A DNA stretch of 64,000 nt from an uncultured Gammaproteobacteria bacterium (GCA_964558935.1 CAZLFP010000001.1:147260-211259), one strand, 5' to 3'; counted from the stretch's first letter, positions 11,960-60,320 are shown. Numbers and translations are program-made. Notes: generated by a model from the sequence alone, not told the origin.

Positions 11960-12001
11960 TGTCAATCGCTTATTTCTTAGATATAGTATACTAAATAATC
12001 T

Positions 12002-12646
12002 ATGCCAAGTAAAACTCAAAAATTCAAAGAAAATGAACTGTTGCCTAATCTTTGGCAGTGTACTGTTAAAAATGAAATAAAACAAGGTTTAGATAATATT
12101 TTAAAACAAAACAAGCCCATTATTTTGGAATTGGGCTGTGGTGGAGGTGATTACACCTTGGCTCTGGCTAAACATTATCCAGATTGGTATATTATTGGTC
12201 TTGATATCCAAGGCGAAAGATTATGGCATGGCGCCACTCAAGCCTTAAGTCAATCTTTAAACAACGCCTTGTTTATTCGCATGTATGCGGATCATCTGCT
12301 AGATTATTTTCCCACCAAGTCAGTGGCTGAAATTTGGATCACTTTTCCAGATCCCTATCCCAAAACCAAACAAATAAAAAAAAGACTGACCAGTCCTAAG
12401 TTCTTGAATATTTATTCACATGTTTTAAAACCCAAAGGCTATCTTCATTTAAAAACGGATAACCTGGATTTGTTTGACTACTCAACCAATCAGTTAGAAC
12501 AATCCTTTTGGATTACCAACTACGTCGAGAATGTATACGCTTCAGACTCAAATGATCCTCTGCTTTATGTACCAACCTATTACGAAAAAAAATATCTTAA
12601 GCAAGGTCGTAACATCTATTACTTGAAAGCACAATATCACTATTAA
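12002..12646 (+). CDS. trmB: tRNA (guanine46-N7)-methyltransferase TrmB
   Basis: SAM-binding LELGCGGGDY and the TrmB-specific FPDPYPK motif. Confidence 0.85.
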   Translation: MPSKTQKFKENELLPNLWQCTVKNEIKQGLDNILKQNKPIILELGCGGGDYTLALAKHYPDWYIIGLDIQGERLWHGATQALSQSLNNALFIRMYADHLLDYFPTKSVAEIWITFPDPYPKTKQIKKRLTSPKFLNIYSHVLKPKGYLHLKTDNLDLFDYSTNQLEQSFWITNYVENVYASDSNDPLLYVPTYYEKKYLKQGRNIYYLKAQYHY

Positions 12647-12902
12647 TAAGACGTACTTAAAATTGTAAGGTTAGAGATTGTTACGGAAGAGATTGAAATA
12701 TTTAATTTTGTAATTAGGATATTTAAAAACCGTCAATTGCTAATAAAAAGTTATATTTTAAGGGTGTGTTTTGTGATATAATGGATTGTATTACATGATA
12801 ATATTGTCTTAGAAACTTGCTGTTATAATTAGAAATACTACAAGCTCTTGACAGAATAATGCAATATGATAGTAAGAAAGTAGGGATTAACCAAACGATA
12901 GC

Positions 12903-13625
12903 ATGATAACCCAAAATCAGATCCTTAGAATTAAGAAATACATAAAGGATCATACAGAAAAAAGAAAAATTATCATAACTGGCGGACATGCCATGGTTAG
13001 TGGTCAAAAACTTCATTTAAACGAAGGTACTATAAAATCTTTCGAGTCTGCAGTTAATCTCTATTTGAAGCTAAAAAAAGAAGGGCAAAATGTATCACTT
13101 GGCATCTTATTGAATAATATCGGATGTGATTGTTCGGGCAAGGATAAATGCACAAAGCAGACAATAAGTTTTAATGAAAATTCCTTTACTTTGCCAATAA
13201 ATTACAAGCGGACTTTAAAAAAGAAAAATATCAATGAGCATCAATTATTGATCATATGGGAGAAGTATATTAGGAATAGATCAAAAAAAGAATTTCTAAA
13301 GAGCCTCAAAAAAAAGGAAACTAGAGAGCGGATTACTTTAATAAATGGTGACTTGTGGTTAAAGTCTGACTTAAGAGGAAGAATTATTTTAACTAGAAGT
13401 CGAAATAAAGATAAGTACGGCGCTCCAGCTTGCCCTCTTATAATGGCCGGCCTGTATAAGCATCTTGAAAAAATGGGTTTTGGATTGTCAATTAATTGTT
13501 ATTATATTGGTAGTGATAATTTAACTAACATACCAAATCATAATGTTATCGAAAAAGGAATGGATGTTTATAATGAACTGTTTAAAGAAAAAGAATTGAA
13601 AGTTTTTAACTTATACTCCTCTTAA
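12903..13625 (+). CDS. hypothetical protein, first gene of the AT-rich island
   Basis: Lys-rich ORF with no recognisable motifs beyond weak GGHAMVSG; start codon uncertain. Confidence 0.4.
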   Translation: MITQNQILRIKKYIKDHTEKRKIIITGGHAMVSGQKLHLNEGTIKSFESAVNLYLKLKKEGQNVSLGILLNNIGCDCSGKDKCTKQTISFNENSFTLPINYKRTLKKKNINEHQLLIIWEKYIRNRSKKEFLKSLKKKETRERITLINGDLWLKSDLRGRIILTRSRNKDKYGAPACPLIMAGLYKHLEKMGFGLSINCYYIGSDNLTNIPNHNVIEKGMDVYNELFKEKELKVFNLYSS

Positions 13626-13642
13626 ATTAGTTTAAGGTCCCT

Positions 13643-15088
13643 ATGAAAAAAAACAACTTCTATATTTTTATAGAAAATCAAAAGCTTAGATCAAAAACCA
13701 CGAACTCTCTATCTGAAATCGAGAATGATCTTAATCTAGAATTTTCACTTTATAATTTGAATCAGGAAGATTTACCAGCAATAAAAAACAAATCTGGTTT
13801 GTTTATACTTTCCACTGATCCAAATAGTAGATCAATTGAGAGTTTTACTATCAATAATAATTATGACGCTAACTCTTGTCGACTTTTTGTTTTATATAAT
13901 CAAAAATCAATAAAAGACTTTCTTGATTTAGTTGATAAAAAAGGTGAACAATTTAATAATATTAATAATAATTTTGATTATATTATATTTAATTGTGATC
14001 CAAAATATTATAACTGGCAAGATAAGAAAAAAGAATATAATAAGTTCATTTTTTTAGGATTTGATGAAGATTTTGACAGCAATCAATACTTTGATTTCCG
14101 ATTTGACATTAGATATCAGAAGTTTCTAAAAAATCTAATCCTTTTTCCTGATATAAAAATAAAGTCCTCCAGTGGATTTCCAATCAAGGCCATGATAGAG
14201 CCAGTAAGAGCATGTAATTTACGTTGTCCTTCATGTCCAATTGGATCTGGAGTAGCAAGTAATTTTGATAAACTCACCTTTGATAATTTTCGGATAATAA
14301 TCGATAAAATTTATCAAACCATTGAAGATATCTCTCTTTTTAACTACGGCGAACCTCTTTTACATGAAGATATTGATAAAATGATTTATTATGCTAAAAA
14401 AAAAGGTATAAAGAAAGTTAAAATACATACAAATGGAATGTTACTAGATGATAATATTGGTGAGAAAATAATTGAGTCTGGTTTAGACAGTTTGAGTATA
14501 TCAATCGATGCTGCAAGTAAAGAATCATATGATAAGTATCGTGTTGGTGGCGATTTTGAACAATTAGTGGAGAAAGTTAAGGACTTTCTGAGACTAAGAA
14601 AGAGAATGAAATCTGGAAAACCATCCGTTAGGGCTCAGTTTATTATCATGAGTCACAATGAGCATGAAGTTAAAAAGTTTTATGAAATGTTTAAGGAAAT
14701 CGGAGTAAACAAAATAAGATTTAAAACTTTTAATGCTCATATGGATGGTTCAGATGATCATAAGAATAAACAATTTTTACCCCTGAATAAAAAATATTCA
14801 AGATACTCAGATAATGAAGCTCATATTATTAATAATAAATTTAAGAGTAATATCTGTTCATGGCCATGGGAAAATGTAGTTATTAATTCTAATGGAGATA
14901 TAGCTCCTTGCTGCTATGATTATAATGCAGATTATAAACTGGGAAATATTTTTGATGACGATTGGTGGAACAACCCAAGTAGAAATATTTTTCGAGAGAA
15001 AATGGAAAATAGTCCAGATGAAATCGAGATGTGTAAGTATTGTGCTGTCGGAATTCCAGATTTAAGCTATAAAAAAATTGAAATATGA
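13643..15088 (+). CDS. radical SAM / SPASM-domain enzyme with an about 180-aa N-terminal extension of unknown function
   Basis: Canonical CxxxCxxC (CNLRCPSC) preceded by EPVRA, and a C-terminal Cys-rich SPASM-like region (CSWPWEN...GDIAPCCYDY...CKYCAV). Confidence 0.8.
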   Translation: MKKNNFYIFIENQKLRSKTTNSLSEIENDLNLEFSLYNLNQEDLPAIKNKSGLFILSTDPNSRSIESFTINNNYDANSCRLFVLYNQKSIKDFLDLVDKKGEQFNNINNNFDYIIFNCDPKYYNWQDKKKEYNKFIFLGFDEDFDSNQYFDFRFDIRYQKFLKNLILFPDIKIKSSSGFPIKAMIEPVRACNLRCPSCPIGSGVASNFDKLTFDNFRIIIDKIYQTIEDISLFNYGEPLLHEDIDKMIYYAKKKGIKKVKIHTNGMLLDDNIGEKIIESGLDSLSISIDAASKESYDKYRVGGDFEQLVEKVKDFLRLRKRMKSGKPSVRAQFIIMSHNEHEVKKFYEMFKEIGVNKIRFKTFNAHMDGSDDHKNKQFLPLNKKYSRYSDNEAHIINNKFKSNICSWPWENVVINSNGDIAPCCYDYNADYKLGNIFDDDWWNNPSRNIFREKMENSPDEIEMCKYCAVGIPDLSYKKIEI

Positions 15089-16677
15089 AGCAAAATTTCG
15101 AATTTTTGTTTCAAAATGGCAAATTAATATGTAAATTCTTTGATGCTGGTATACAGAGTAAAATTTTTTGTGTTGAAAACGAAAATGGTAAATACAAACT
15201 TATTGATGAAGATATCACGGATCCAAATTTACATAAAGGCCAATTTCCTCGAAGTGGGTTTCTATTCTTTAACTCAAAAAATGATCAATTAACAATTTCT
15301 CCGGATGATTGGGGTAGAGTTCCGATGTTTTTTTACAGCCAGAATAATTATTTATTTTGTACTAATACATTTTCAGAGATACTTGAGAAATTTGATTTAG
15401 AAATAGATAATAATCAAATACTTCAACAACTATTTTTTGGGCATTCTTTTTCTGGAAAGACTATTTTTAAAAAAGTTTTTGTGTTACCACCACATCAGAA
15501 AATAGTTTTTAAGAATGGTAACATGAATATGGAAAATAATGATTTGAATATTTACGGTATCGAAGATAATCATGATCAGTCAATTGAGCAGTTAGATTAT
15601 GAAATTAGTAAAGTATTTTTTGAGTACTTTGACAATGCCAAGAATAATGAATTCACACTATCTCTTACTGGCGGTCTTGATTCTAGATTATTAATGGCCA
15701 AATACATTGAATATAGATCCCATAAAATCAATTGCTTTACTTATGGAACCAGGAAAGATAGAGACGTGTTGATAGCCAGGCGTATCGCTCAAGATTATAA
15801 ATATAATCATAACTTTTTCGAAATAACTCCAGATGACTTCATTAAAAATGCTGAAGAGTATATCTTGTTTACAGGTGGAACTAATTCCTTAACTAATTCG
15901 AGAGCGTTTCATATTTACCGTGAATTTAGCTCTGATCAAATTATTGTCAACGGCTTTGGTGGTGATTTGACTTTGGGTGGTGGGTTTCACAAGCGTGAGC
16001 TTCTAGAACATAATGACAATGATTTTTTGATGAGTTATCTATTTTCAAAGTTTTGCAAAATTGACCCAGATTCATTTAGTAATTTGTCTAATATTGGTAT
16101 TCGTGACTTACAAAACATGTTTATCAATGAAGTTGAGCCGCTTTTTACTTTAAATACTCAGCATGGAAGCCTTCCATTAAAAGCAGACAAAATTTTGTTA
16201 CTGTCTAAAGTCATCTTTTATGGTTATTGGAGTGTATTATTTTCTGCTCAAAAGGCGAAAGTAATAACACCCATGTTTGATCCACGCTTAAATAATTATT
16301 TTTTATCAATTGATTCAAAATCAAGATATAAACACACCTTATACAAAAATTATTTTATTAATAAATTTCCCGAGTTAGCAAAATATCCTTGGCAAAAATT
16401 TGGCGTTAATTTATTCGATGAGAGGTCGCCGATTCTTGATCAAGATAATAATAGAAGAATACCTTATCAGTCTTTTTGGCAAGAAGATCTAAGATTGTGG
16501 ATACGAGACGTACTATTTTCTAATAATTCATACTTAATTAATGTGATTAATATCAATAAAATAAAAAAAATGCTGAATGATAAAAAACCCTCAAATGATT
16601 GGGCAGACTTTATAGGTCAAATTCTAAGCATTGAATTGCTGATAACCTATTATAAGAAAATTAAATTGAAAAGATGA
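15085..16677 (+). CDS. asparagine synthetase (AsnB)-like PP-loop ATP pyrophosphatase domain protein lacking the N-terminal glutaminase cysteine
   Basis: PP-loop motif LSLTGGLDSRL; residue 2 is Lys not Cys, so there is no class-II glutamine amidotransferase nucleophile. The start overlaps the upstream stop (ATGA). Confidence 0.7.
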   Translation: MKQNFEFLFQNGKLICKFFDAGIQSKIFCVENENGKYKLIDEDITDPNLHKGQFPRSGFLFFNSKNDQLTISPDDWGRVPMFFYSQNNYLFCTNTFSEILEKFDLEIDNNQILQQLFFGHSFSGKTIFKKVFVLPPHQKIVFKNGNMNMENNDLNIYGIEDNHDQSIEQLDYEISKVFFEYFDNAKNNEFTLSLTGGLDSRLLMAKYIEYRSHKINCFTYGTRKDRDVLIARRIAQDYKYNHNFFEITPDDFIKNAEEYILFTGGTNSLTNSRAFHIYREFSSDQIIVNGFGGDLTLGGGFHKRELLEHNDNDFLMSYLFSKFCKIDPDSFSNLSNIGIRDLQNMFINEVEPLFTLNTQHGSLPLKADKILLLSKVIFYGYWSVLFSAQKAKVITPMFDPRLNNYFLSIDSKSRYKHTLYKNYFINKFPELAKYPWQKFGVNLFDERSPILDQDNNRRIPYQSFWQEDLRLWIRDVLFSNNSYLINVININKIKKMLNDKKPSNDWADFIGQILSIELLITYYKKIKLKR

Positions 16678-17816
16678 AAATATTTATTATAAGTAGGCAC
16701 TTTTTACCGCATTATGGTGGAGCGGAATTTCAGCTTGATTTTTTGGCCAGATTATTAGTAGAGTCGGGACATGAAGTCGAAGTGCTTACTAGTAGATTAC
16801 AAAATTCTAGAAAGATTGAAAATTACCAAGGCTATAAAATCTTAAGATTTGGTAGTGGTTATAGCAAGAAAGGAAAAGTTCAGGCCTACAATGAAATTCT
16901 AGCATACATTAGAAAAAATCGGGATTTGGATTGGGTATATTGGTCATATTCGGGATCAGAAAAAGAAATTATTATCGCTCAATACGAGTTACTTAAGTAT
17001 TTGCGTCACCAAGGTGTAAAAAGAATCATGAGAGTAACATCTTCAGAAAGAATTAGACAGGCAAAGGAAGATTATCCAGAGTTTATTAATGAGGTTGATA
17101 AAGTTAATTATATTGTTACATTAAATGAAGGAATTAAAGAAGAATTATTAGGTGCTGGAGTTTCTGGTGATGGAATAATAATGATGAATAATGTCGTAGA
17201 TGTTGCTATGTTTAAAAAAGTGTCTAAGCAAGAGAAAGAATTATTAAGACAGAAATTAGGATTCGGATTAGACGAAAAAATATTTATTTATACTGGTCGT
17301 TTTTCTCCTAAAAAAAACTTACCACTTCTGACTACGCTATGGTATGAATTTGGTTATCACCTTAATGCTGAAATGAGACTATTAATTGTAGCAAATGATA
17401 ATCTTGGCATCGAAGACTTAGGAGAGCGTCAAAAAATAGAATCCTGTATTAAAGGCAAGCAAATAAAAAATATAAATATCATTGCAGTAAAAAAACGGGA
17501 AGAGTTAGCTAAATTGTATCAATTATCAGATGTATGTGTTAATTTTTCTACTACTGAGGGTATGAGTAATTCACTGCTTGAGGGGATGGCTTCTGGTTTA
17601 GTGATTATGTGTAGTAATATAATCGCTAACGAAAATATTGTCAAACAGAATGTAAACGGTTATTTGTTTAGTTTAGACAATAATATTGAGATCAAAACAG
17701 CTTTTGAAGGAGCAATGCAGAAAAATGAGCAGATAATCGAGAATAATGTAAATAAAATTATGAGAGATCATTTAGTCAATGACCAACTTAATAAATTAAT
17801 TCTAAAAATAATATAA
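16674..17816 (+). CDS. glycosyltransferase family 4 (GT-B fold)
   Basis: C-terminal motif FSTTEGMSNSLLEGMASGLVIM, typical of GT4 retaining transferases; overlaps the upstream stop. Confidence 0.8.
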   Translation: MKIFIISRHFLPHYGGAEFQLDFLARLLVESGHEVEVLTSRLQNSRKIENYQGYKILRFGSGYSKKGKVQAYNEILAYIRKNRDLDWVYWSYSGSEKEIIIAQYELLKYLRHQGVKRIMRVTSSERIRQAKEDYPEFINEVDKVNYIVTLNEGIKEELLGAGVSGDGIIMMNNVVDVAMFKKVSKQEKELLRQKLGFGLDEKIFIYTGRFSPKKNLPLLTTLWYEFGYHLNAEMRLLIVANDNLGIEDLGERQKIESCIKGKQIKNINIIAVKKREELAKLYQLSDVCVNFSTTEGMSNSLLEGMASGLVIMCSNIIANENIVKQNVNGYLFSLDNNIEIKTAFEGAMQKNEQIIENNVNKIMRDHLVNDQLNKLILKII

Positions 17817-17819
17817 TTT

Positions 17820-18980
17820 ATGAAAATTCTAGTTGTTTCACCGCTGTATGAAAAATATCATTGGGGAGGATTGGCACATTCTTGTAGAAGAATTTCTCTT
17901 GGCCTTAATAATAAGGGACATGAGGTAGTGGTTGTAAATATCGATGCCGAAAATCAATATTGGGATGAAGATAATAAACCCAATGGCTATTTCAAAACCG
18001 ATGATAATGGCTTAAGTTTATATCATGTGCCCCAGCATTATTCCTATACCAACATTGAGCTTAAAAAAGAAGATGACCTGGCAATAAAACTTCAACAATG
18101 GTATCTATTATTAAGATCAATTAGCAAAGATATAAAGCCAGACATAATAATATCTTTTTTTATTGCTCCCTATGGTTATCCACTCTCTCTCATTGCTAAA
18201 GAATTCGGTATTTCTATGATATCAGCAATTAGGGGTAATGACATTGGAAGATTTATGCATGATCCGATGATTATGCCACTTCTGAAGCATACTTTAGAAA
18301 ACTCAGATCTGGTTGTTTGTTTAGCAAAAGATTTGGAGACTCAGGTTAAGCTACTATATCCAAAAGCTAAAACCAAAGTTATTTACAATTCGATCGATCC
18401 GAAATTTTACAATCTAGAGTGGCCGGAAATATTTCAGAATGATATAGTTACCGTTGGTTCAGTTGGAATCTTTAAGCCTAAAAAGGGTGTTGAATTCTTT
18501 ATTGATGCTGTTAATAACAAAAAACGCGAAAAAATGAAGTTATTAATGGTTGGTGATTTTTATAAAACAAAAACAAAAAAGGAAGATATAATTAAAAATT
18601 CAATAAATGAAATCGAAGTGACAGGAGTTGTTACTCGAGAAAGGGTTATTAAATATTTGAAAGATATTGATATCTTCTTTACCCTTACTCACTCAGACGG
18701 GTGTCCAAATGCAACGCTAGAGGCAATGTGCGCCGGCAAATGTATTATTACAACCCCAGTAGCAGCTATGGCAGACTTACTGGAACATAAGCATAGCGCC
18801 TACTTTATAGAAAAAATGGATAAGGATTTAATAGTTAATGCAGTTGAAGAATTAATGTCAGATAGAGGCCTGGTAAAACAAATGGGGAGAAATGCTCGCA
18901 TAGCCGCCAGTAAGCTTTTACCCCCATATGAAATAGATGAGTGGGATATGGTCATAAAATCATTATCAAACAAAAAATGA
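17820..18980 (+). CDS. glycosyltransferase family 4 (GT-B fold)
   Basis: HSDGCPNATLEAMCAGKCIIT motif and GVEFFIDAV. Confidence 0.8.
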   Translation: MKILVVSPLYEKYHWGGLAHSCRRISLGLNNKGHEVVVVNIDAENQYWDEDNKPNGYFKTDDNGLSLYHVPQHYSYTNIELKKEDDLAIKLQQWYLLLRSISKDIKPDIIISFFIAPYGYPLSLIAKEFGISMISAIRGNDIGRFMHDPMIMPLLKHTLENSDLVVCLAKDLETQVKLLYPKAKTKVIYNSIDPKFYNLEWPEIFQNDIVTVGSVGIFKPKKGVEFFIDAVNNKKREKMKLLMVGDFYKTKTKKEDIIKNSINEIEVTGVVTRERVIKYLKDIDIFFTLTHSDGCPNATLEAMCAGKCIITTPVAAMADLLEHKHSAYFIEKMDKDLIVNAVEELMSDRGLVKQMGRNARIAASKLLPPYEIDEWDMVIKSLSNKK

Positions 18981-20116
18981 CTACAGTATTATATAGCCAT
19001 GATGGCAGGGGTATTGGTCATGTTAGTAGAACTGCAGCTTTAGCCATGGGAATTAAACGAATAAAACCTGACGAACAAGTTATTTGCATAACTGGTTATG
19101 AGGGATTTAATGACTTACACCCGAGAAATGACATAGAATGGATAAAGTTGCCGTCATATAAAACCACTGTTACCAAAGGAAAGGTTTGGGCTAAATTATC
19201 ACCCGCCGGATATACCAAAGAAGAATCTGCCAGTATTAGATCACAAATAATATTGGCATCGATTAAAGCGCTAAAACCGGATAATATAATTGTCGAATAT
19301 TTTCCACAGGGCAAAATGCTGGAAATAAGAAAGACCTTGCTTTACTTGGAAAGTAATACGAATTGTAATATATATCTTGGTTTGAGAGGTGTCATAGCCG
19401 ATAAAAATGATGATGGCTATGGCGACATCTTCAACCAAGATAATTATACAATTATTGATAAATACTACAAAAAAGTATTCTGTTATACTGATAGTAACGT
19501 ATTTACTTACAGGAAAGACGAATTCAATAATAATATTCTGAGCAAAATAGTTAATACTGGTTATGTTTCTAGAGCATCAGAAATCGACAAGATAACAGAC
19601 TTAGATAATAAGCCATCATATGATAAATTGGTGGGTTTAGGTTGCAGTGTTAATGCATTTGAAATGATTAAAATGATTATTAATGTTAAGTCAAAATCAT
19701 TTCCAGGTGAGAAGTGGGCCATTTTTTTAGGTACTGCCTTATCAAGAGCTGGAAAAGAAGAGCTTAGAGCCTATTCTAAGGATATTTACAACTTAGATCT
19801 TATCGATTTCAACGATGAATTTTTAGCATATCTAAAATCGGCTAAAGCTATCATTAGTCATGGCGGGTACAATACTATTACTGACACTCTTTTTTTTAGA
19901 AAGCCAACTATATATATAGCAAGAGATGTACCAGAAAAAGATCAAGAGATTCATTTAGAATATTTGAAGACGGCGGGAATAATATCGAATTATTTAACGG
20001 AGACAAATTTAACAGAAGACTTGTTGGAAAATGAAATTAGAAATATGAGCAAGAGAGAAGTATCAACTAACATAGACGGTTCAAGTAATGTGGCGAAAGC
20101 AATTTTTAACTTATAA
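18977..20116 (+). CDS. GT-B glycosyltransferase, MurG/GT28-like (start probably the internal Met overlapping the upstream stop)
   Basis: N-terminal G-rich loop HDGRGIGHVSRTAALA and C-terminal ISHGGYNTITDT resemble MurG/GT28 and UDP-glycosyltransferase donor-binding motifs. Confidence 0.6.
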   Translation: MTTVLYSHDGRGIGHVSRTAALAMGIKRIKPDEQVICITGYEGFNDLHPRNDIEWIKLPSYKTTVTKGKVWAKLSPAGYTKEESASIRSQIILASIKALKPDNIIVEYFPQGKMLEIRKTLLYLESNTNCNIYLGLRGVIADKNDDGYGDIFNQDNYTIIDKYYKKVFCYTDSNVFTYRKDEFNNNILSKIVNTGYVSRASEIDKITDLDNKPSYDKLVGLGCSVNAFEMIKMIINVKSKSFPGEKWAIFLGTALSRAGKEELRAYSKDIYNLDLIDFNDEFLAYLKSAKAIISHGGYNTITDTLFFRKPTIYIARDVPEKDQEIHLEYLKTAGIISNYLTETNLTEDLLENEIRNMSKREVSTNIDGSSNVAKAIFNL

Positions 20117-20186
20117 GAACTGTGTAAATGTGACTAATTTCTGAGATCAATAAAAAACCGTCACATTTGAGACGATTTTTCTATTG

Positions 20187-20257
20187 CTCGGGGACATGGA
20201 TTCGAACCATGGTTACCAGGGCCAGAACCTGGCGTCCTACCACTAGACGATCCCCGA
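20187..20257 (-). tRNA. tRNA-Gln (anticodon CUG), no encoded CCA
   Basis: Reverse complement reads TCGGGGATCGTCTAGTGGTAGGACGCCAGGTTCTGGCCCTGGTAACCATGGTTCGAATCCATGTCCCCGAG. It has a 7-bp acceptor stem, GGTTCGAATCC T-arm and anticodon loop TTCTGGC. Confidence 0.85.
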
Positions 20258-20339
20258 ATACTCAATAACCAACATATCTTGTGTAATTTAACAAAAAAAG
20301 AGCACCTTGTCAATCTACAAGACACCCATCTAAACTGCT

Positions 20340-20660
20340 CTATTCCTTGATGTTGTTGACTAAAACCATAATTTGCTGAGCATGTTTGGCTATGATTTCA
20401 GGATCTCTGAATGACTGAGAAAAATCTTTAAGTTCAGATAGGGCTTTAATGATATCGGCTTTGTTGGGGTTGTCAAAATCAGCTTGAGCTTTGTTAAAAG
20501 CTTTCTTAACAATCTGTTGACAGTAATCTTTGTTTGCCGTCTGGTCTTGATCCAGTCCCACATCTTCGCAATGGGCTTGAAAAAAACATTCCAGTATGGC
20601 GTCCCTGACCATTAAAGGAGTGACAGGCTGATTTGGATCTATTCCAAATACTTTACTCAT
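20340..20660 (-). CDS. hypothetical protein (106 aa)
   Basis: Clean ORF with plausible composition; no motif recognised. Confidence 0.45.
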   Translation of the reverse strand: MSKVFGIDPNQPVTPLMVRDAILECFFQAHCEDVGLDQDQTANKDYCQQIVKKAFNKAQADFDNPNKADIIKALSELKDFSQSFRDPEIIAKHAQQIMVLVNNIKE

Positions 20661-22770: not shown

Positions 22771-25320
22771 TTAGTTAGAACTGAGATTAGTCTTACGGTC
22801 GACAGGTGCAACCGGATTTCCTCCCAACTGTCCAATCTTGGAGCGCTCAACAATCTGCTGAATGACGTCTCGTCTGGATTGGCCGTATTTTAATCTGGAC
22901 ATTTCTTTGACTGCCGGAATAATGGCGGGGTCGGCAGTATCCGGAAGAGGAAAAGTGTGCATATTGAAAGTATCTGAGGCTGTATTATCTATTAACAGTC
23001 TAATATAAGCGTTAAATTTGTCAATATTCATAACGTCATACTCATTGACTTTTGGCGCTAACTGCTTAGCGATCGTCTCAGCATCATCCACTCCGATTCG
23101 AAAAGAAACAACCGTACCCACATTGCCGAAAATGGCATCTTTAACCTTGGAATCACCACCTTGGGTCAATTGAGCAATATACTGATGAGCCATAATGAGA
23201 TTTAAACGGTATTTTCTGGCTTCAGCCAAAATAATTGAGATACTGTCGGTAATGAAGTTCTGAAACTCATCGATGTAGAGGTAGAAATCATTCCTTTGGT
23301 CTTCAGGTAAATCTGCTCTACCCAAAGCGGCCATTTGCAGTTTGGACACGGCAATTAAACCCAGCAAATTACTATTGGTCTCACCCACTTTACCTTTGGA
23401 TAAGTTCATCAGCAGAATCTTCTTCTCATCCATGACTTTGCGAAAACTAAAACCTGATTTCGGCTGACCAATAATATTCCTCATCAACTCATTTTCCACA
23501 AAACGACCGGTCTTGGAAATCACATAGGATAACATATCTGAAGCCGTACTGCCTTTTTGTGAAGCTTTATATTCTCTTTCCCAAAAATCTCTGACCAACA
23601 AATCTTTAACATGCCTTAATTTTTTGCGACGGTAAATATCGTCCGTAAAAATTCTGGGTAATTCAACCAAAGTACCGGGATCATTGGTATCCGCCATGAG
23701 CGCCAATAAAGCATTACGCATATAATGCTCAAACATCGGTCCGGCCATAGCCGGATCCGGCAATAATTTGTAGAAGATATTAATCATTTCTTGTGCCGCA
23801 AAATCCATTTCATGAGGAGATTTGGCTTCCAACATATTCAAGCCAATCGGTCGTTCCAAATCCGAAGGATCAAATAAAATAACATCATCCAATCTGTCTT
23901 TGGGAATGTGCGGCAAAATATCTTCAACTAAAGAACCATGGGGATCAACCACGCACACGCCTTTGCCGGCCTGAATATCCTGTATGACCAAACTGGCTGT
24001 TAACCAAGATTTACCCGTACCTGTCATGCCAATAATATACATATGACGTCGACGGTCATTATCTTTAATCCTAACTAAAGTTTTTTCTCCTCGATAAAAA
24101 TTCTCTCCCAACAACAAGCCTTCTTCCGGCATATCCACGGGTGGGGGCAGTTTGCGAGATTGCAGCCAGCGAATATTCGGTACTTCCGTACCTGGTATGG
24201 GTAAATGCCATAACGATGTCATTTCTTCGGTATTTAAAACAAAACCCAATTTGTCATCATAGATGCGATAAATGAAATCGGTAATTGTTTTTCTAACAGA
24301 TCCCTTGATGACAGCCCGAAAACCATTGGCATATTCATAATTTGAATACTGAGCAAAAGAATTAATAATGTAATCTAAGTTGTTTTTAGCCTGTTCTTGT
24401 TCCGGAGCAAACGTCACAATTCTGACATTAACATCCATACCGGCTCGAGACGCTTTTTCTTCAATGGATTTAACGGCTTCTTCTTCCATGGGAGAGAGAC
24501 GCTTGGGTTCTTTGGGCTCAGTCGGTTTAACAGAAGTGCCCAGCAGACCCTGAGGTCCGAACAACCAAGCAACCGGGCCTGACTTGGCTCCTGACATAGC
24601 TTCTTTCAAGGACTTGCCCTGGTGAACATCAGATGCCACTTTCACTCCCCTTTGACGCCATTCTTTTTTGGCTGACCTCATCACTACTTGCACAGCAGCC
24701 GCTTGACCATCTGGAATCTTAGATAAACCGGTTAAGAGTGAAGTCAGAGGATCCACTTGCATCTTTTTGTAAGTTAAAATCGGGTACATGCTATGTTTAA
24801 TCAACTGTAAATGCCCGGCAGCAGCTACACCCTTGGGTTTGAAAATGTTGTAATCCGGTACTTGCTCAATCTGGCAGTATGGATATTGAGTTAAAAATTG
24901 TTGACTGATGTAATCTTCCAGATACTCCGGAACGGCAATGTAAAAAGATATTAAATCATCATAGCCTTTGACAATTTCAAATGACCAGTTATCATAACGG
25001 CCGAACAACCAAGTTTTTAAACCTCTCAAGGCTTTCAAGCCTCCCAAATTGGCATAAAAATTTTCAATACCAGATAGAATTTCCTTGGCTTCTTTGTTTT
25101 GGTCACTTTCTTTTAAACTCTGTTTGGGTATGGTTAAACGAAAGACTCTTTTGGAAAAAGTGTTGGGTAAAAAACGTGGGAGTGACAACAGTTTTTTGAT
25201 CACAAACAAAATGGTTAATCCAATAATAAACAAGCTGGCACCAATACCGACAATTAAAACCGCCAGCCAAACATACTCTAAACTTTGACTCACATCTGGT
25301 AATGTATTGAATACCTCCAT
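22771..25320 (-). CDS. membrane-anchored P-loop ATPase of the TraD/TraG/VirD4 (type IV coupling protein, TraG-D_C) superfamily
   Basis: N-terminal TM helix, Walker A IGMTGTGKSW, Walker B region FYLYIDEF, and C-terminal ARKYRLNLIMAHQYIAQL...IFGNVGTVVSFR, which resembles the TraD/TrwB C-terminal motif. Confidence 0.6.
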   Translation of the reverse strand: MEVFNTLPDVSQSLEYVWLAVLIVGIGASLFIIGLTILFVIKKLLSLPRFLPNTFSKRVFRLTIPKQSLKESDQNKEAKEILSGIENFYANLGGLKALRGLKTWLFGRYDNWSFEIVKGYDDLISFYIAVPEYLEDYISQQFLTQYPYCQIEQVPDYNIFKPKGVAAAGHLQLIKHSMYPILTYKKMQVDPLTSLLTGLSKIPDGQAAAVQVVMRSAKKEWRQRGVKVASDVHQGKSLKEAMSGAKSGPVAWLFGPQGLLGTSVKPTEPKEPKRLSPMEEEAVKSIEEKASRAGMDVNVRIVTFAPEQEQAKNNLDYIINSFAQYSNYEYANGFRAVIKGSVRKTITDFIYRIYDDKLGFVLNTEEMTSLWHLPIPGTEVPNIRWLQSRKLPPPVDMPEEGLLLGENFYRGEKTLVRIKDNDRRRHMYIIGMTGTGKSWLTASLVIQDIQAGKGVCVVDPHGSLVEDILPHIPKDRLDDVILFDPSDLERPIGLNMLEAKSPHEMDFAAQEMINIFYKLLPDPAMAGPMFEHYMRNALLALMADTNDPGTLVELPRIFTDDIYRRKKLRHVKDLLVRDFWEREYKASQKGSTASDMLSYVISKTGRFVENELMRNIIGQPKSGFSFRKVMDEKKILLMNLSKGKVGETNSNLLGLIAVSKLQMAALGRADLPEDQRNDFYLYIDEFQNFITDSISIILAEARKYRLNLIMAHQYIAQLTQGGDSKVKDAIFGNVGTVVSFRIGVDDAETIAKQLAPKVNEYDVMNIDKFNAYIRLLIDNTASDTFNMHTFPLPDTADPAIIPAVKEMSRLKYGQSRRDVIQQIVERSKIGQLGGNPVAPVDRKTNLSSN

Positions 25321-27155: not shown

Positions 27156-28103
27156 TTATATTTTGTCAATATTAGCTACAATAACCTTAATATCCTGTAT
27201 TTTTTCAACTTTAACTAGCTCAGATCTTAATGTCTTAGCTCCCGGAAAGCCTGAGACATACCACAGCAGATGTTTTCTAAGTTCTACCAAACCATGACTT
27301 CCCTTAGCCTTAAAAGCTAACTTAGCATGTTCTAGGATAACTTTCTTTAGCATTTGTTTATTCATATCTTCAAAACTATCTTTCTTTAAATAGTCTTTTA
27401 TTTGTTTAAACAGATATGGCTTACCGTATACTCCTCTTGCTAAACCAATCCCATCTACACCTGTCTCTAGCATTTTTTTAGCATCTTCTGGTGACTTGAT
27501 TCCCCCATTGCCTAATACAATGCCATTGAACTTTTCTTTCACTTGCTTAATCATGTCATAATCTATGGGGCTGGTAAAAGGATTTTTAAAATATCTACCG
27601 TGTATCATTAAGGTGGAAACATCTAAATCCTTTATCTTATCTACAAAATCCAAAGCTGTTACCGTATCTATACCGGCTCTAATTTTAACAGACACCGGTA
27701 ACTTAGTGCCTTGAAGTACAGATTCGATGATCCGATAACAGTTATCTAAATCCCTCATCAGAGTAACTCCTCCACCATGAGCCACCACTTTTTTAGCCGG
27801 ACATCCAAAATTAATGTCTAGACCATCAAAACCATGCTTGGTGACTACTTGTGCTGCTTTTGTAAAAACTTCTGGTTTTTTTCCAAATAATTGGACTACG
27901 ACCGGTTTTTCTTTTTTAGAAAACTGAAGTAGTTCTAAGGTTTTCTTAGAATCATAATACAATCCATCTGCCGAGACCATTTCAGTATATACCACATCTG
28001 CTCCATACTGACGACACAGTTCACGAAAAGCAGAATCAGTTACGCCCGCCATAGGGGCGAGCGCTAAGATGGGCTGTTTAATTTTATGCCAGAAGTTTTT
28101 CAT
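27156..28103 (-). CDS. dus: tRNA-dihydrouridine synthase (Dus family)
   Basis: LALAPMAGVTD, FMN-binding TIM-barrel motifs and catalytic GCPA..V. Confidence 0.85.
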   Translation of the reverse strand: MKNFWHKIKQPILALAPMAGVTDSAFRELCRQYGADVVYTEMVSADGLYYDSKKTLELLQFSKKEKPVVVQLFGKKPEVFTKAAQVVTKHGFDGLDINFGCPAKKVVAHGGGVTLMRDLDNCYRIIESVLQGTKLPVSVKIRAGIDTVTALDFVDKIKDLDVSTLMIHGRYFKNPFTSPIDYDMIKQVKEKFNGIVLGNGGIKSPEDAKKMLETGVDGIGLARGVYGKPYLFKQIKDYLKKDSFEDMNKQMLKKVILEHAKLAFKAKGSHGLVELRKHLLWYVSGFPGAKTLRSELVKVEKIQDIKVIVANIDKI

Positions 28104-28606
28104 TAGTAGAAAATAAAGAAGTTAACCATATGCAATATTAATCCAATGACTATTATTACATAGTAATATATATGCTTGATTCTTACATATTTATATCGAC
28201 GTACGTAAATATTAAACATGTAAAAAGCATATAATATGGCTATGGGTACATACAAAATAATGGGAAAAGATATACCCGCAGCATAGTAGAACGGCATCTG
28301 AATAAAGTCTATAAATAATGCTATAAAGAAAGGTATAGCAATAATATTCCCAAATGTTTTTAAAGCAAAAACATAATTCTGTTTCTCAAATCCTTGAGCA
28401 AAATATTTAGCCAGTGTGTAGGCAACACTCAAAAAAAAGAAAGATAATAAAGGATAACCAAGTAAAATAAAAACGCCCATACCTTGTTGGGCATCAGAAG
28501 TTATTGAAGTTAAAAAAGCTGCAAACATAAGGACAATACCAAACAAAACCACATAGATACCAAATCTAAGTCCAGATAATTTGAATAACTTGTCTAATAA
28601 TTTCAC
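28103..28606 (-). CDS. small polytopic membrane protein, unknown function
   Basis: 4-5 hydrophobic helices; start/stop overlap with dus. Confidence 0.45.
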   Translation of the reverse strand: MKLLDKLFKLSGLRFGIYVVLFGIVLMFAAFLTSITSDAQQGMGVFILLGYPLLSFFFLSVAYTLAKYFAQGFEKQNYVFALKTFGNIIAIPFFIALFIDFIQMPFYYAAGISFPIILYVPIAILYAFYMFNIYVRRYKYVRIKHIYYYVIIVIGLILHMVNFFIFY

Positions 28607-28612
28607 AAAATT

Positions 28613-30004
28613 TTATTTACTTTTTAAATTATACCCTTCTTTAGTATCTTCAATTACATATCCTGCCTTATCTATCTCAGCTCTTAACTTATCTGACAGC
28701 TCATAGTCTTTATTTTGCTTAGCTTTTAATCTATCCTCTGCTAATTCAATTACCTCTTCAGGTATTTTTTCTTCCTGATCCAAATCTAAGCCAAATACTT
28801 TGTCCATATCTAAGATGGTAGCTTTAATATCTTCATGTTTAACATCTGACTTTAACAAATCCCACATCACAGCTAAAGCTTGAGGAATATTAAAATCATC
28901 TTCTAGAGCTGAAACAAACTTTTCTTTCCACTCTCGGTTAACCTTGCCTACTTTAGATATACTAGCTAATTTATTCTTTAAACTAGTGTAAGCACTACTA
29001 GCAGATTCAAGAGCTTCCCAAGTAAAGTTTTGTTTAGATCTGTAATGTGCTCCTAAGTAAAAATATCTTAAAACCAAAGGATCATAGCCTCTATCTCGAA
29101 TTTCTTCCAAAGAATAACCAGTTCCTAAAGATTTAGACATTTTGCCACCATCCACAGTTAGATGTTCGTTGTGTAGCCAATAGTTGGTAAAAGGTTTACC
29201 GGTAGCTGCTTCAGATTGAGCTATTTCATTCGTATGATGAACTGGAATATGCTCTACACCACCCATATGAATATCTAAGGTGTCTCCCAAATACTTTTGA
29301 CTCATTGCAGAACACTCTATATGCCAACCAGGAAATCCTTCTTCAACAGATTGCTTAATACCCTTAAACTGATGACTCCAGGTTTGTAGAGCATTCTTAT
29401 GTTTACCAGCTTTAAAAAACCAAACAGCAAAGTCAGCGGCATGTCTTTTACCTGGATCCCCTACTTCACCTTTACCAGCTGCAGATATATTCTTTTCCAA
29501 ATCCTGTTTGTTTAATTTAGTGTATCCGTCAAATTTAGAGATATCGAAATAGATGGCTAGATCTGTCGCGTAAGCATATCCCTTGTCTATTAAAGTCTGA
29601 ACCATGCTCTGCATCTCTTTAACATGTTCAGTCGCTTTTGGTTGTTTATATGGAGTAAGGACATTTAAATCTTTAACATCTTTCTCATAAATATTTATGT
29701 ACTTATGAGCAATCTCCTCAGGATTCATTTTTGCCTGCTTAGCACTCTTTTCCATCTTATCCTCACCCTCATCACTGTCTGATGTAAGATGGCCCACATC
29801 CGTATAATTTCGAACCAATTTAACTTCGTATCCTATATAGTCCAGGGATCTATGGATTAAATCCGCCAGCACCACTGCTCTTAAATTGCCGATGTGTTGT
29901 GTCCAATACACAGTCGGACCGCAATGATAAAAACCAACTTGTTTATCCTTAAGCGGTTTGAAGTCTTGTTTTTTCTTGTCTAATGTATTGTAAATCTTGA
30001 GCAT
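28613..30004 (-). CDS. cysS: cysteine--tRNA ligase
   Basis: HIGH-type CGPTVYWTQHIGN, KMSKSLG, and zinc-binding Cys/His residues. Confidence 0.95.
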   Translation of the reverse strand: MLKIYNTLDKKKQDFKPLKDKQVGFYHCGPTVYWTQHIGNLRAVVLADLIHRSLDYIGYEVKLVRNYTDVGHLTSDSDEGEDKMEKSAKQAKMNPEEIAHKYINIYEKDVKDLNVLTPYKQPKATEHVKEMQSMVQTLIDKGYAYATDLAIYFDISKFDGYTKLNKQDLEKNISAAGKGEVGDPGKRHAADFAVWFFKAGKHKNALQTWSHQFKGIKQSVEEGFPGWHIECSAMSQKYLGDTLDIHMGGVEHIPVHHTNEIAQSEAATGKPFTNYWLHNEHLTVDGGKMSKSLGTGYSLEEIRDRGYDPLVLRYFYLGAHYRSKQNFTWEALESASSAYTSLKNKLASISKVGKVNREWKEKFVSALEDDFNIPQALAVMWDLLKSDVKHEDIKATILDMDKVFGLDLDQEEKIPEEVIELAEDRLKAKQNKDYELSDKLRAEIDKAGYVIEDTKEGYNLKSK

Positions 30005-41876: not shown

Positions 41877-41893
41877 ATATTTGTGTGATTTAA

Positions 41894-41918
41894 TAAAAAA
41901 ACTGCGGTTGATCCGCAG
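41894..41918 (-). terminator. leader attenuator hairpin with U7 immediately upstream of the rplJ start
   Basis: Minus-strand CTGCGG-AUCAA-CCGCAG followed by UUUUUUU; lies between the promoter and the rplJ ATG. Confidence 0.55.
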
Positions 41919-42022
41919 ATTACATGACTAAAGATAGTCAGAGAATATTCCTAGGCAGGGTTTTGTTTAAATTAAGCCAATTATGGCCCCCACGGTCTGC
42001 GGATGTCTTAAGTTATATTGGT

Positions 42023-54907: not shown

Positions 54908-54917
54908 AGTTAAATAA

Positions 54918-56081: not shown

Positions 56082-56141
56082 AAAATTTAGCTTATTTTAG
56101 CTATTATTATATATAATACCATATTTATTAAACTTTGGCTA

Positions 56142-56170
56142 TTGACAAATATTCAATAGTATGCTATACT
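56142..56170 (+). promoter_or_regulatory. sigma70 promoter (TTGACA-17-TATACT) driving the GC-rich ncRNA
   Basis: Read directly; predicted TSS about 56177. Confidence 0.6.
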
Positions 56171-56177
56171 TGCAATT

Positions 56178-60319: not shown

Positions 60320-60320
60320 A

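What the first reader, a model, noticed from the sequence alone, without database searches (positions are those of the whole stretch)
12647..20260. AT-rich, tRNA-Gln-flanked operon encoding rSAM/SPASM, glutaminase-less AsnB-like and three glycosyltransferase genes
From just after trmB to tRNA-Gln the sequence is visibly far more AT-rich than the flanking housekeeping genes. It encodes six tightly packed or overlapping same-strand genes. These are a hypothetical protein, a radical-SAM/SPASM enzyme, an asparagine-synthetase-like PP-loop protein lacking the Cys2 glutaminase nucleophile, two GT4 glycosyltransferases and a MurG/GT28-like GT-B transferase. The compositional break together with the tRNA border suggests horizontal acquisition. 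The gene set suggests synthesis of an amidated and/or radical-modified surface glycan or glycoconjugate. I do not recognise this combination as a described pathway. AsnB-like amidotransferases do occur in O-antigen and archaeal N-glycan loci, but pairing with an N-terminally extended rSAM/SPASM enzyme is unusual.
Basis: partly seen in the sequence, partly recalled or inferred. Interest (0 to 1): 0.75.

Follow-up and report, generated by a model that had tools for sequence, protein, structure and literature searches.

The report
Conserved radical-SAM, amide-ligase, glycosyltransferase cassette
This AT-rich block is a real, rare five-gene cassette, found in a handful of uncultured microbes, that most likely builds and chemically tailors a short sugar chain; its product and the pathway have not been described.

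Summary
Window 12.6-20.1 kb has 28-34% GC against about 39% elsewhere. It carries six tightly packed plus-strand genes and ends 70 bp from the 3' end of tRNA-Gln(CUG).

Domain calls are confirmed with three corrections:
- The 'SPASM' domain has only four invariant cysteines, which align with BtrN's. It is therefore twitch-like, with one auxiliary cluster.
- The GT28-like gene probably starts at 18977.
- The first gene (240 aa) belongs to a separate small family that occurs elsewhere without the cassette, so it is not core.

The core is five genes: radical SAM, Cys2-less AsnB-like PP-loop enzyme, GT4, GT4 and GT28-like GT-B. All five recur in four other divergent metagenomic lineages and four in a fifth, truncated contig, sometimes in a different order.

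The AsnB-like subfamily has only five representatives among 1.84 billion proteins. Each sits beside such a radical SAM gene and glycosyltransferase genes.

In distant relatives (two cassette lineages, Omnitrophota, a nanoarchaeon) the radical SAM domain is fused to GT28-like or GT4 domains. No precursor peptide, peptide-recognition domain, integrase or tRNA repeat was found.

Best reading: a cytoplasmic glycoconjugate assembly and tailoring module, with radical sugar modification plus ATP-dependent amidation. It was plausibly acquired horizontally. Product, acceptor and host taxon remain unknown, and I found no description in the literature.

The parts
12647..12902 (.). AT-rich intergenic region between trmB and the first island gene; left compositional boundary
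   Evidence: GC drops from about 0.40 to 0.33 and below here. It holds only chance-level sigma-70-like matches, no conserved small ORF and no copy of the tRNA-Gln 3' end.
12903..13625 (+). 240-aa protein of an uncharacterised small family (invariant ITGGH, DKYGxPACPLIM and IEKG motifs). It is an accessory or hitch-hiking gene, not part of the conserved cassette.
   Evidence: No Pfam, NCBIfam or PADLOC hit. It has 9 homologues at 42-45% identity. They lie in other contexts: beside DUF2769, an aminotransferase and Lon in L077, and near an MFS transporter in L078. It is absent from all other cassette loci. GC is 0.307.
13643..15088 (+). Radical SAM enzyme of 481 aa. Residues 1-175 form an N-terminal alpha/beta extension. 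The radical SAM core carries C191-x3-C195-x2-C198. The C-terminal twitch-like Fe-S domain has C405, C423(C424), C464 and C467.
15085..16677 (+). AsnB-like PP-loop ATP pyrophosphatase of 530 aa. It has a degenerate Ntn-type N-domain without the Cys2 nucleophile, and is predicted to adenylate a carboxylate and form an amide.
16674..17816 (+). GT4-family GT-B glycosyltransferase (GT4a), 380 aa
   Evidence: Pfam Glycos_transf_1 67 bits. Orthologues are present in L003, L072, L081 and L082 (137-392 bits). The start overlaps the AsnB-like stop as ATGA. It appears fused to the AsnB-like ORF in L001/L002 through a 1-nt homopolymer difference.
17820..18980 (+). GT4-family GT-B glycosyltransferase (GT4b), 386 aa; the most conserved protein of the cassette
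   Evidence: Pfam Glycos_transf_1 84 bits and Glyco_transf_4 41 bits. Orthologues score 232-650 bits in all five other lineages. The closest solved relatives are BshA-type UDP-GlcNAc transferases (E 6e-13) and TarM.
18977..20116 (+). GT28-like (MJ1255/PF13528-type) GT-B glycosyltransferase of about 379 aa. The mechanical ORF starts at GTG 18941. It is not MurG.
   Evidence: Pfam Glyco_tran_28_C 48 bits. TIGR00661 scores 42 bits and murG TIGR01133 17.9 bits against a cutoff of 250. The real MurG is at 53846-54907 (258.7 bits). Orthologues in all other lineages align from residue 13. A homologous GT-B domain is fused to the radical SAM enzyme in L082, L085 and L018.
20186..20257 (-). tRNA-Gln(CUG), with its 3' end facing the cassette; right boundary of the AT-rich block
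   Evidence: ARAGORN and Rfam tRNA at 61 bits. No direct repeat of it was found at the other boundary.

Best explanation
Proposed function. Window 13643-20116 is a translationally coupled five-gene cassette that assembles and tailors a short glycan on an unidentified acceptor at the cytoplasmic face. The acceptor is probably lipid- or envelope-linked.

Proposed roles (all inferred):
- Three soluble GT-B transferases (two GT4, one GT28-like) add sugars. GT4b possibly uses UDP-GlcNAc.
- The twitch-type radical SAM enzyme abstracts a hydrogen atom from one sugar carbon. The outcome would be oxidation to a keto sugar (as in BtrN), decarboxylation (as in BlsE), epimerisation or ring rearrangement (as in Cds/HpnJ).
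- The glutaminase-less AsnB-type enzyme adenylates a carboxylate, for example on a uronic or other acidic sugar, and closes an amide with ammonia or another amine.

Shown by the data: gene content, motifs, folds, conservation of the five-gene set, and domain fusions.
Inferred: substrate class, order of steps, donor sugars and cellular destination.

The block, together with the unrelated upstream 240-aa gene, was probably acquired horizontally next to tRNA-Gln.
For: 1. Unit conservation. Orthologues of all five proteins co-occur in L001-L003, L072, L081 and L082, and four of them in the truncated L085. AsnB-like identity falls to 28% and the gene order differs in L082 and L085.
2. Rarity and linkage. 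The AsnB-like subfamily has 5 representatives at E<=1e-30 in 1.84e9 proteins. Each is encoded beside a radical SAM gene of this clade and GT genes.
3. Domain fusions. A GT28-like GT-B domain is fused to the radical SAM domain in L082, L085 and Omnitrophota L018 and L017. GT4 fused to radical SAM occurs in L018. A GT28_C+GT4+radical SAM ORF occurs in Nanoarchaeota L014. L018 also carries a DegT-type sugar aminotransferase and two Cys2-less AsnB-like genes.
4. Radical SAM subclass. Four invariant C-terminal cysteines align with those of BtrN. BtrN is a twitch enzyme whose auxiliary cluster has four Cys ligands and which oxidises an aminocyclitol (PMC9012708). The best sequence and fold matches are BlsE, MoaA and BtrN, which act on small molecules or sugars.
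6. No peptide pathway signs. There is no conserved small ORF in or beside six cassette loci and no RRE-like fold.
7. Coupling and location. Junctions are ATGA overlaps and no protein has a predicted TM helix.
8. Acquisition. GC and GC3 lie 2.5-2.9 SD below the window mean. The block is on the opposite strand to most genes of the window. A tRNA 3' end lies at the border. The relative's cassette is also AT-poor against its own, different, flanks.
Against: - No experimental datum exists for any member.
- The cassette has no initiating phosphoglycosyl transferase, flippase, polymerase, nucleotide-sugar synthesis gene or uronic-acid dehydrogenase. The acceptor and the carboxylate are therefore guesses.
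- All family hits are far below curated equivalog cutoffs.
- GT-B enzymes can glycosylate peptides or small molecules.
- The apparent AsnB-like/GT4a fusion in L001/L002 rests on a single base in an A-run and may be an assembly error.
- For acquisition: no integrase and no att repeat. Housekeeping CysS and Dus have GC3 0.28-0.30. Polysaccharide loci are often AT-rich without recent transfer (own knowledge).
Confidence: 0.5

Rival explanations
1. The cassette makes a soluble small-molecule glycoside. Candidates are an aminoglycoside- or nucleoside-like natural product, a low-molecular-weight thiol or cofactor, or a compatible solute. In this reading the radical SAM enzyme and the AsnB-like ligase tailor the aglycone or a sugar, rather than an envelope glycoconjugate.
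For: The nearest solved relatives of the radical SAM enzyme (BlsE, BtrN, MoaA) and of the AsnB-like enzyme (TsnB9, CarA, beta-lactam synthetase) all work on small molecules in secondary metabolism. The best structural relatives of both GT4s are BshA, which glycosylates L-malate. All proteins are soluble and the cassette encodes no export or lipid-carrier function.
Against: No exporter, resistance or regulator gene is conserved with the cassette. Three GT-B transferases are many for a small metabolite. The hosts appear to be small-genome uncultured organisms, where secondary metabolism is uncommon (own knowledge; host not identified). Similarities to the named enzymes are at superfamily level only.
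Confidence: 0.22
2. The cassette matures a ribosomal peptide or a peptide-derived cofactor, like mycofactocin or a glycosylated RiPP. The radical SAM enzyme would cross-link or oxidise the peptide, the AsnB-like enzyme would form an isopeptide or lactam as in lasso peptides, and the GTs would glycosylate it.
Against: No conserved small ORF lies in or next to six cassette loci. The N-extension is flavodoxin/GT-lobe-like, not an RRE, and one cassette lacks it. There is no leader peptidase or lasso B protein. The lasso cyclase model scores 16 bits against a cutoff of 525. The radical SAM domain is fused to GT-B domains, and in Omnitrophota it sits beside a DegT sugar aminotransferase. Only four conserved auxiliary cysteines are present, which is the twitch pattern.
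Confidence: 0.1
3. The block is an ordinary, vertically inherited glycan locus. Its low GC reflects the usual AT bias of sugar-chain loci and weakly expressed genes. The tRNA neighbour is coincidental, so there is no genomic island.
For: There is no integrase, transposase or direct repeat of the tRNA. Housekeeping Dus, CysS and an orphan at 27-30 kb have similar GC3 of 0.27-0.30. In compact genomes a fair fraction of gene junctions touch a tRNA (inference).
Against: Three cassette genes have the lowest GC3 in the window. The block is inverted relative to most neighbouring genes. The nearest relative's cassette sits between different genes (an aminotransferase upstream, a small basic protein and an amino-acid permease downstream) and is also AT-poor against its flanks. 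Another cassette (L081) abuts a tRNA 3' end. The distribution is extremely patchy.
Confidence: 0.3

Closest known systems
BtrN / SpeY-type twitch radical SAM dehydrogenases (aminoglycoside and aminocyclitol pathways) and BlsE (cytosylglucuronate decarboxylase)
   Different: Identity is only 17-20%, and NCBIfam BlsE scores 44 bits against a cutoff of 400. The genomic context differs: there are no aminoglycoside or nucleoside antibiotic genes. An N-terminal 175-aa alpha/beta domain, or a whole GT-B domain in relatives, is absent from BtrN and BlsE.
Glycolipid head-group tailoring by a GT plus a radical SAM enzyme: calditol synthase Cds (archaeal GDGT) and HpnI/HpnK/HpnJ (bacteriohopanetetrol cyclitol ether)
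   Same: The logic is shared. A glycosyltransferase installs a sugar and a radical SAM enzyme then rearranges it (PMC13459092). GT4 and GT28 are the classic glycolipid-synthase families (own knowledge).
   Different: No sequence relationship to Cds or HpnJ was tested or seen. Neither lipid pathway has an AsnB-like enzyme. The lipid nature of the acceptor here is only a hypothesis.
Glutaminase-inactive AsnB homologues: beta-lactam synthetase, carbapenam synthetase CarA, lasso-peptide cyclases; and TsnB9
   Different: Identity is 11-15%, with no PDB hit by sequence. The subfamily has its own conserved motifs (PDxxGRVP, GDLTxGGGxxKR, RYKHxLYK, WQKxG, RRxPY). The context is glycosyltransferases, not beta-lactam or lasso genes.
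AsnB-type amidotransferases of polysaccharide loci (e.g. TIGR03108 of the PEP-CTERM/XrtA EPS system; WbpS-like uronamide formation)
   Same: An AsnB-family gene is embedded among GT4 genes. GT4a and GT4b weakly hit the stp2/stp3 models and the AsnB-like protein hits TIGR03108. AsnB-like genes also neighbour GT4 genes in several loci retrieved through distant AsnB homologues.
   Different: Those enzymes keep the glutaminase domain and Cys2. Scores here are 30-66 bits against cutoffs of 409-817. No exosortase, PEP-CTERM, Wzx/Wzy or ABC export genes are present. The obligatory pairing with a radical SAM enzyme is not a feature of those systems.
MurG / GT28 and the MJ1255 (TIGR00661, PF13528) GT-B family
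   Same: The GT28 C-terminal domain is present (48 bits), as is a G-rich N-terminal motif (HDGRGIGH).
   Different: The murG model scores 17.9 bits against a cutoff of 250. The genome's real MurG lies in the dcw cluster at 53846-54907. This family is repeatedly fused to radical SAM domains.

Membership tests
Radical SAM superfamily | CX3CX2C cluster-binding motif and the partial TIM-barrel core | tested here: met
SPASM subclass (two auxiliary [4Fe-4S] clusters) | Seven-cysteine motif including CX2CX5CX3C, which binds Aux I and Aux II | tested here: not met
   PF13186 matches at 46 bits. However, only 5 cysteines lie C-terminal to the core, and only C405, C423, C464 and C467 are invariant. There is no CX2CX5CX3C. 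The motif definition is from my own knowledge; PMC9012708 states that SPASM binds two clusters and twitch binds one.
Twitch subclass (BtrN-like, one auxiliary cluster) | Truncated SPASM domain with a single set of Cys ligands | tested here: met
   The C-x17-C-x40-C-x2-C pattern aligns residue-for-residue with the four C-terminal cysteines of BtrN (the query there starts at residue 382). NF033640, the twitch model, hits residues 402-468. Actual cluster content cannot be tested in silico.
RiPP maturase system | Adjacent precursor peptide gene and a peptide-recognition (RRE/PqqD-like) domain | tested here: not met
   No small ORF is conserved among six cassette loci. The N-extension folds as a flavodoxin/receiver-like alpha/beta domain. 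A precursor encoded elsewhere cannot be excluded.
Asparagine synthetase B (class II glutamine amidotransferase) | N-terminal Cys2 nucleophile of the Ntn glutaminase domain | tested here: not met
   The N-termini are MKQNFEF, MKFELL, MKNNQ, MRESK and MDEES; none of the five has Cys2. There is no Pfam GATase hit. TIGR01536 scores 54 bits against a cutoff of 267.
AsnB superfamily synthetase domain (PP-loop ATP pyrophosphatase) | SGGxDS PP-loop and the AsnB C-terminal fold | tested here: met
Lasso peptide cyclase (McjC-like) | Family model match, plus a partner B protease/RRE and a precursor | tested here: not met
   NF033535 scores 16 bits against a cutoff of 525. No B protein or precursor is present in the cassette.
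GT4 glycosyltransferases | GT-B with a Glycos_transf_1 C-domain | tested here: met
   PF00534 scores 67 and 84 bits against a cutoff of 26.4. Glyco_transf_4 scores 41 bits for GT4b. No equivalog-level assignment was reached: the best is BshA at 66 bits against a cutoff of 274.
MurG | Score above the TIGR01133 cutoff, and location and role in the dcw cluster | tested here: not met
   The score is 17.9 bits against a cutoff of 250. The true MurG is at 53846-54907, scoring 258.7 bits, between ftsW and murC.
tRNA-associated genomic island | tRNA at the border, an integrase, direct repeat of the tRNA 3' end, and deviant composition | tested here: inconclusive
   The tRNA 3' end lies 70 bp from the last gene and composition deviates by 2.5-2.9 SD. 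No integrase domain is present among the six genes or their neighbours, and there is no repeat of 10 nt or more.
Canonical surface-polysaccharide locus (Wzx/Wzy, ABC or synthase dependent) | Initiating phosphoglycosyl transferase, flippase or exporter, polymerase | tested here: not met
   None of the six proteins has such a domain or a predicted TM helix. None is present in the other cassette loci. These functions could be supplied from elsewhere in the genome.
Known anti-phage defence systems | Match to PADLOC models | tested here: not met
   Only generic radical SAM similarity to pVip was seen (52 bits). The other five proteins have no hit.

The most novel reading that the evidence does not exclude
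The cassette is the unfused, minimal form of a previously unrecognised and phylogenetically wide class of glycan-tailoring machinery. In this class, twitch/SPASM radical SAM enzymes are physically coupled to GT28-like and GT4 glycosyltransferases and paired with glutaminase-less AsnB-type ligases. Members seen here come from Omnitrophota, a nanoarchaeon and unassigned metagenomic lineages. The system would make a new kind of radically modified, amidated sugar in the envelope of ultra-small, probably host-attached microbes.
Probability: 0.35. Interest if true: 0.75.

Novelty: new variant of a known kind. Interest (0 to 1): 0.55.

Why it matters
Radical SAM chemistry on sugars is so far known from a few antibiotic pathways and two lipid head-group pathways. 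Here it is tied by conserved gene order and by repeated domain fusion to GT-B glycosyltransferases, and it comes with a tiny, cassette-specific branch of the asparagine-synthetase superfamily.

If the product is an envelope glycoconjugate, it would point to unexplored sugar chemistry in uncultured small-celled lineages, whose surfaces mediate attachment to hosts.

The finding also gives enzymologists a compact, all-soluble five-gene set to express. It yields a ready genome-mining rule: the AsnB-like subfamily marks the pathway.

If the product turns out to be ordinary, the finding still corrects annotations. The 'SPASM' domain is twitch-like, the GT28-like gene is not MurG, and the start of the 240-aa gene should be moved upstream.

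Tried and rejected
- Integration scars. I looked for direct or inverted repeats of 10 nt or more of tRNA-Gln between 9 and 24 kb and found none.
- Source genome. Exact look-up of window proteins found no contig on record. Cluster look-up gave only unnamed singletons on one 217-kb NCBI contig. The host taxon therefore stays unknown. Neighbouring genes (UvrB, dUTPase, DUF2207, SuhB, TrmB, DnaX, VirD4-like, CorA, Dus, CysS, a dcw cluster) show a peptidoglycan-bearing bacterium.
- Genome-collection scan with the radical SAM alignment. It gave 67 loci, but only L005 (identical to L004) carried the cassette.
- Metagenome scan with the AsnB-like alignment. The general PP-loop pattern swamped it. It returned only distant AsnB relatives (at most 31% identity) and no new cassette.
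- Is the N-extension of the radical SAM enzyme a relic of the fused GT28-like domain? hhalign gave E 0.089, which is not significant. The fold search was equally compatible with receiver domains. Unresolved.
- Is the 240-aa protein related to the extra genes of other cassettes? It shows no similarity to the L004 240-aa protein, the L001 upstream fragment or the L082 300-aa protein.
- Is the AsnB-like/GT4a fusion in L001/L002 strong linkage evidence? I downgraded it, because the only difference from the unfused L003 is one A in a homopolymer.
- Promoter and terminator scans were uninformative in this AT-rich DNA.
- Defence-system models gave nothing specific.
- Seven full-text literature searches found no description of this gene combination.
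- The Cys-rich 82-aa ORF upstream in L004 was considered as a peptide substrate. It has no Pfam match and no counterpart in other loci.

Full report

Yes. In 1-kb bins the window averages about 0.39-0.40 GC. Bins from 12001 to 20000 lie at 0.28-0.34, and the GC skew changes sign over exactly this stretch.

The six plus-strand ORFs average GC 0.311 and GC3 0.264. The other 40 long ORFs average 0.392 +/- 0.032 and 0.376 +/- 0.038. The radical SAM, AsnB-like and first GT4 genes (GC3 0.216-0.258) are lower than every other ORF in the window.

The block is bounded on the left by trmB, which ends at 12646 (Methyltransf_4, 126 bits). On the right it is bounded by tRNA-Gln(CUG) at 20186-20257 on the minus strand, with the tRNA 3' end facing the block. 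Most long ORFs of the window are on the minus strand, so the block is also inverted.

The junctions are an 18-nt gap, ATGA, ATGA, a 3-nt gap and ATGA. That is the classic picture of translational coupling.

**2. What the genes are**

- Radical_SAM plus SPASM (481 aa).
- Asn_synthase without any GATase domain (530 aa).
- Two GT4 enzymes (380 and 386 aa).
- A protein with a GT28 C-terminal domain.
- No family for the first, 240-aa ORF.

Every match to a curated equivalog model is far below its cutoff. None of the proteins can be given a specific name.

Three refinements follow.

(a) Orthologues align with the GT28-like protein from its residue 13. The gene therefore most likely starts at ATG 18977, overlapping the GT4b stop codon.

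(b) The Fe-S domain after the radical SAM core contains only five cysteines. Four of them (C405, C423, C464, C467) are invariant in 28 homologues. They align one-for-one with the four C-terminal cysteines of BtrN. BtrN is the archetypal twitch enzyme. Its single auxiliary cluster has four Cys ligands and it oxidises an aminocyclitol alcohol (PMC9012708). The domain is therefore twitch-like rather than a full two-cluster SPASM domain.

(c) The window contains a normal dcw cluster with an above-cutoff MurG at 53846-54907. The GT28-like protein is therefore not MurG; it scores 17.9 bits against a cutoff of 250.

**3. Conservation: a five-gene core, not six**

The AsnB-like protein is the marker of the system. 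A word-indexed search of 5.8 billion proteins found one close relative at 52% identity, and the next hit was at 24%. A full HMMER scan of 1.84 billion cluster representatives found only five proteins at E<=1e-30, including the query.

I could look up the contigs of all of them. Every one lies beside a radical SAM gene of the same clade and glycosyltransferase genes:
- L001-L004: same order as the window, 52-57% identity.
- L072: same order, with the AsnB-like gene frameshifted.
- L081: same order, but with a short 312-aa radical SAM enzyme.
- L082: GT4-GT4-radical SAM(713 aa)-methyltransferase-unknown-GT28-like-AsnB-like.
- L085: GT4-radical SAM(711 aa)-GT28-like-AsnB-like, on a contig that ends next to the first GT4 gene.

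Pairwise HMM comparison shows orthologues of all five proteins in L001-L003, L072, L081 and L082. In the truncated L085, four have clear orthologues and GT4a has none. GT4b is the best conserved.

The 240-aa ORF does belong to a real small family: nine homologues at 42-45% identity, with invariant ITGGH, DKYGxPACPLIM and IEKG motifs. However, those homologues sit in unrelated neighbourhoods, and the other cassette loci have no such gene. It is a passenger or accessory gene.

**4. Fusions tie the radical SAM enzyme to glycosyltransferases**

In L082 the first roughly 370 residues of the 713-aa radical SAM protein are homologous to the cassette's GT28-like protein. The equivalent regions of the L085 protein and of a 712-aa Omnitrophota protein (L018) are homologous to it in turn (E 9e-38 and 4e-23). 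L017 carries the same GT28_C-radical SAM-SPASM architecture.

L018 further encodes:
- a 1297-aa GT4-radical SAM-SPASM fusion;
- several more radical SAM genes;
- a DegT-type sugar aminotransferase;
- two Cys2-less AsnB-like proteins, which hit an HMM of the cassette subfamily at E 6e-21 and 8e-18.

L010 has an AsnB-like gene next to the radical SAM homologue. A nanoarchaeal contig (L014) has giant ORFs combining GT28_C, GT4, Radical_SAM and SPASM.

These independent fusions are the strongest evidence that the radical SAM enzymes of this clade act in the same pathway, and probably on the same substrate, as GT-B transferases.

One apparent fusion should be discounted. The 919-aa AsnB-like/GT4a protein of L001/L002 differs from the unfused L003 by a single A in a homopolymer.

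**5. Structure-based checks**

None of the six proteins has a predicted transmembrane helix.

**6. Alternatives tested**

*A peptide (RiPP) pathway.* No small ORF is conserved among six cassette loci. There is no RRE and no lasso partner, and the lasso cyclase model scores 16 bits against a cutoff of 525.

*A defence system.* Only generic viperin-like radical SAM similarity was found.

*A known polysaccharide system.* PEP-CTERM, GPMC, teichuronic and colanic models all score far below their cutoffs. There is no initiating transferase, flippase or polymerase in any cassette locus.

*Literature.* Seven full-text searches found no paper describing this combination. The nearest conceptual precedents are radical SAM tailoring of a sugar after glycosyl transfer in calditol (Cds) and hopanoid cyclitol ether (HpnJ) biosynthesis (PMC13459092), and the twitch dehydrogenase BtrN (PMC9012708).

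**7. Horizontal acquisition**

In favour:
- the composition and strand anomalies;
- the tRNA 3' end at the border;
- the nearest relative's cassette lies between different genes and is likewise AT-poor against its flanks, 0.26-0.32 versus 0.33-0.42;
- a third cassette (L081) starts about 135 bp after a truncated tRNA 3' end;
- the extremely patchy distribution.

Against:
- no integrase and no att-like repeat;
- a cassette of 41-44% GC in L072, which may have ameliorated to its host or may simply come from a higher-GC genome, since that contig has almost no flanking sequence;
- the housekeeping genes Dus and CysS in the same window have GC3 of 0.28-0.30.

I rate acquisition as likely (about 0.65-0.7) but unproven.

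**8. Mechanism proposed**

*Shown:* a co-inherited, translationally coupled set of three soluble GT-B transferases, one twitch-type radical SAM enzyme and one glutaminase-less AsnB-type adenylating enzyme.

*Inferred:* the transferases assemble a short glycan on an acceptor at the cytoplasmic membrane face. GT4 and GT28 are the families of the classical glycolipid and lipid-linked-sugar transferases (own knowledge), and the closest solved relatives of GT4b use UDP-GlcNAc. The radical SAM enzyme abstracts a hydrogen atom from a sugar carbon. With one fully ligated auxiliary cluster as electron acceptor, it most simply yields a keto sugar, as BtrN does. Decarboxylation (as in BlsE) or ring rearrangement (as in Cds/HpnJ) are the alternatives. 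The AsnB-like enzyme amidates a carboxylate with ammonia or an amine.

My confidence that the substrate class is a glycoconjugate rather than a peptide is about 0.7-0.75. My confidence that it is envelope- or lipid-linked rather than a soluble metabolite is about 0.5. Confidence in any specific chemistry is low.

**9. Verdict**

It is a new variant of a known kind, a glycan assembly and tailoring cluster. Its interesting and apparently undescribed feature is radical SAM enzymes coupled, and in relatives fused, to GT-B transferases and to a private branch of the AsnB superfamily.

**Limits:** everything rests on sequence and predicted structure. The host organism was not identified. Most related contigs are short, so flanking transport or acceptor genes may have been missed.

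Noticed in passing
window 12903-13625; P0143-P0152: The 240-aa ORF belongs to an uncharacterised family with invariant ITGGH, DKYGxPACPLIM and IEKG motifs and two invariant cysteines. The 210-aa version held in the public collection starts after the invariant TGGH, so the annotated start is probably too far downstream. In L077 a homologue overlaps a DUF2769 gene.
   Followed up: partly
L081 1-30: The contig begins with what looks like a truncated tRNA 3' end (GACCCGGGTTCAATTCCCGGTCGGGGCG), about 135 bp upstream of that cassette's radical SAM gene. This is a second cassette lying next to a tRNA.
   Followed up: partly
L001 about 3788 / L002 / L003 (junction of the AsnB-like and GT4a genes): One A more or less in a homopolymer (A6 versus A7) is the only difference across 2.76 kb. 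It fuses or separates the two ORFs (919 aa versus 530 + 391 aa). This is either an assembly error or a phase-variable tract.
   Followed up: yes
window 52466-62795: The dcw cluster (MraY, MurD, FtsW, MurG, MurC, with MurB and SecA beyond) is interrupted by three unexpected genes: a beta-CASP ribonuclease (56908-58275, hitting Cas14/aCPSF1 models below cutoff), an F420-ligase-like ORF (59651-60319), and an FG-GAP plus YkuD L,D-transpeptidase protein (60321-61718).
   Followed up: partly
window 22771-25320 (-): An 849-aa VirD4/TraG/TrwB-like type IV coupling protein lies about 400 bp upstream of dnaX. No other conjugation genes were examined.
   Followed up: no
window 27156-30004: This is a second low-GC patch. 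Dus (GC3 0.297), a 167-aa orphan with no Pfam hit (28103-28606, GC 0.288) and CysS (GC3 0.284) lie here. Low GC3 in this genome is therefore not confined to foreign-looking genes.
   Followed up: partly
window 20340-20660 (-): A 106-aa ORF with no Pfam match follows dnaX, in the position where ybaB usually lies. A terminator-like hairpin (20327-20300) and a promoter-like site (20313-20285) separate it from tRNA-Gln.
   Followed up: no
L014 194-10885; L018 37-17876: Nanoarchaeota and Omnitrophota contigs carry runs of very long ORFs that combine GT28_C, GT4, several Radical_SAM and SPASM domains. In L018 these sit with a DegT aminotransferase and Cys2-less AsnB-like genes. This looks like a large, undescribed glyco-radical-SAM locus type.
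   Followed up: partly
L004 1029-1277: An 82-aa Cys-rich ORF (CPWN...C...CPYFCG...CC) lies upstream of the class IV aminotransferase that precedes the relative's cassette. It has no Pfam hit and no counterpart in other cassette loci.
   Followed up: partly
window 41886-42020 (-) and 42065-42613 (-): The ribosomal L10 leader (Rfam, 53 bits) is preceded by an AMMECR1-family gene rather than by the usual rplK-rplA genes.
   Followed up: no
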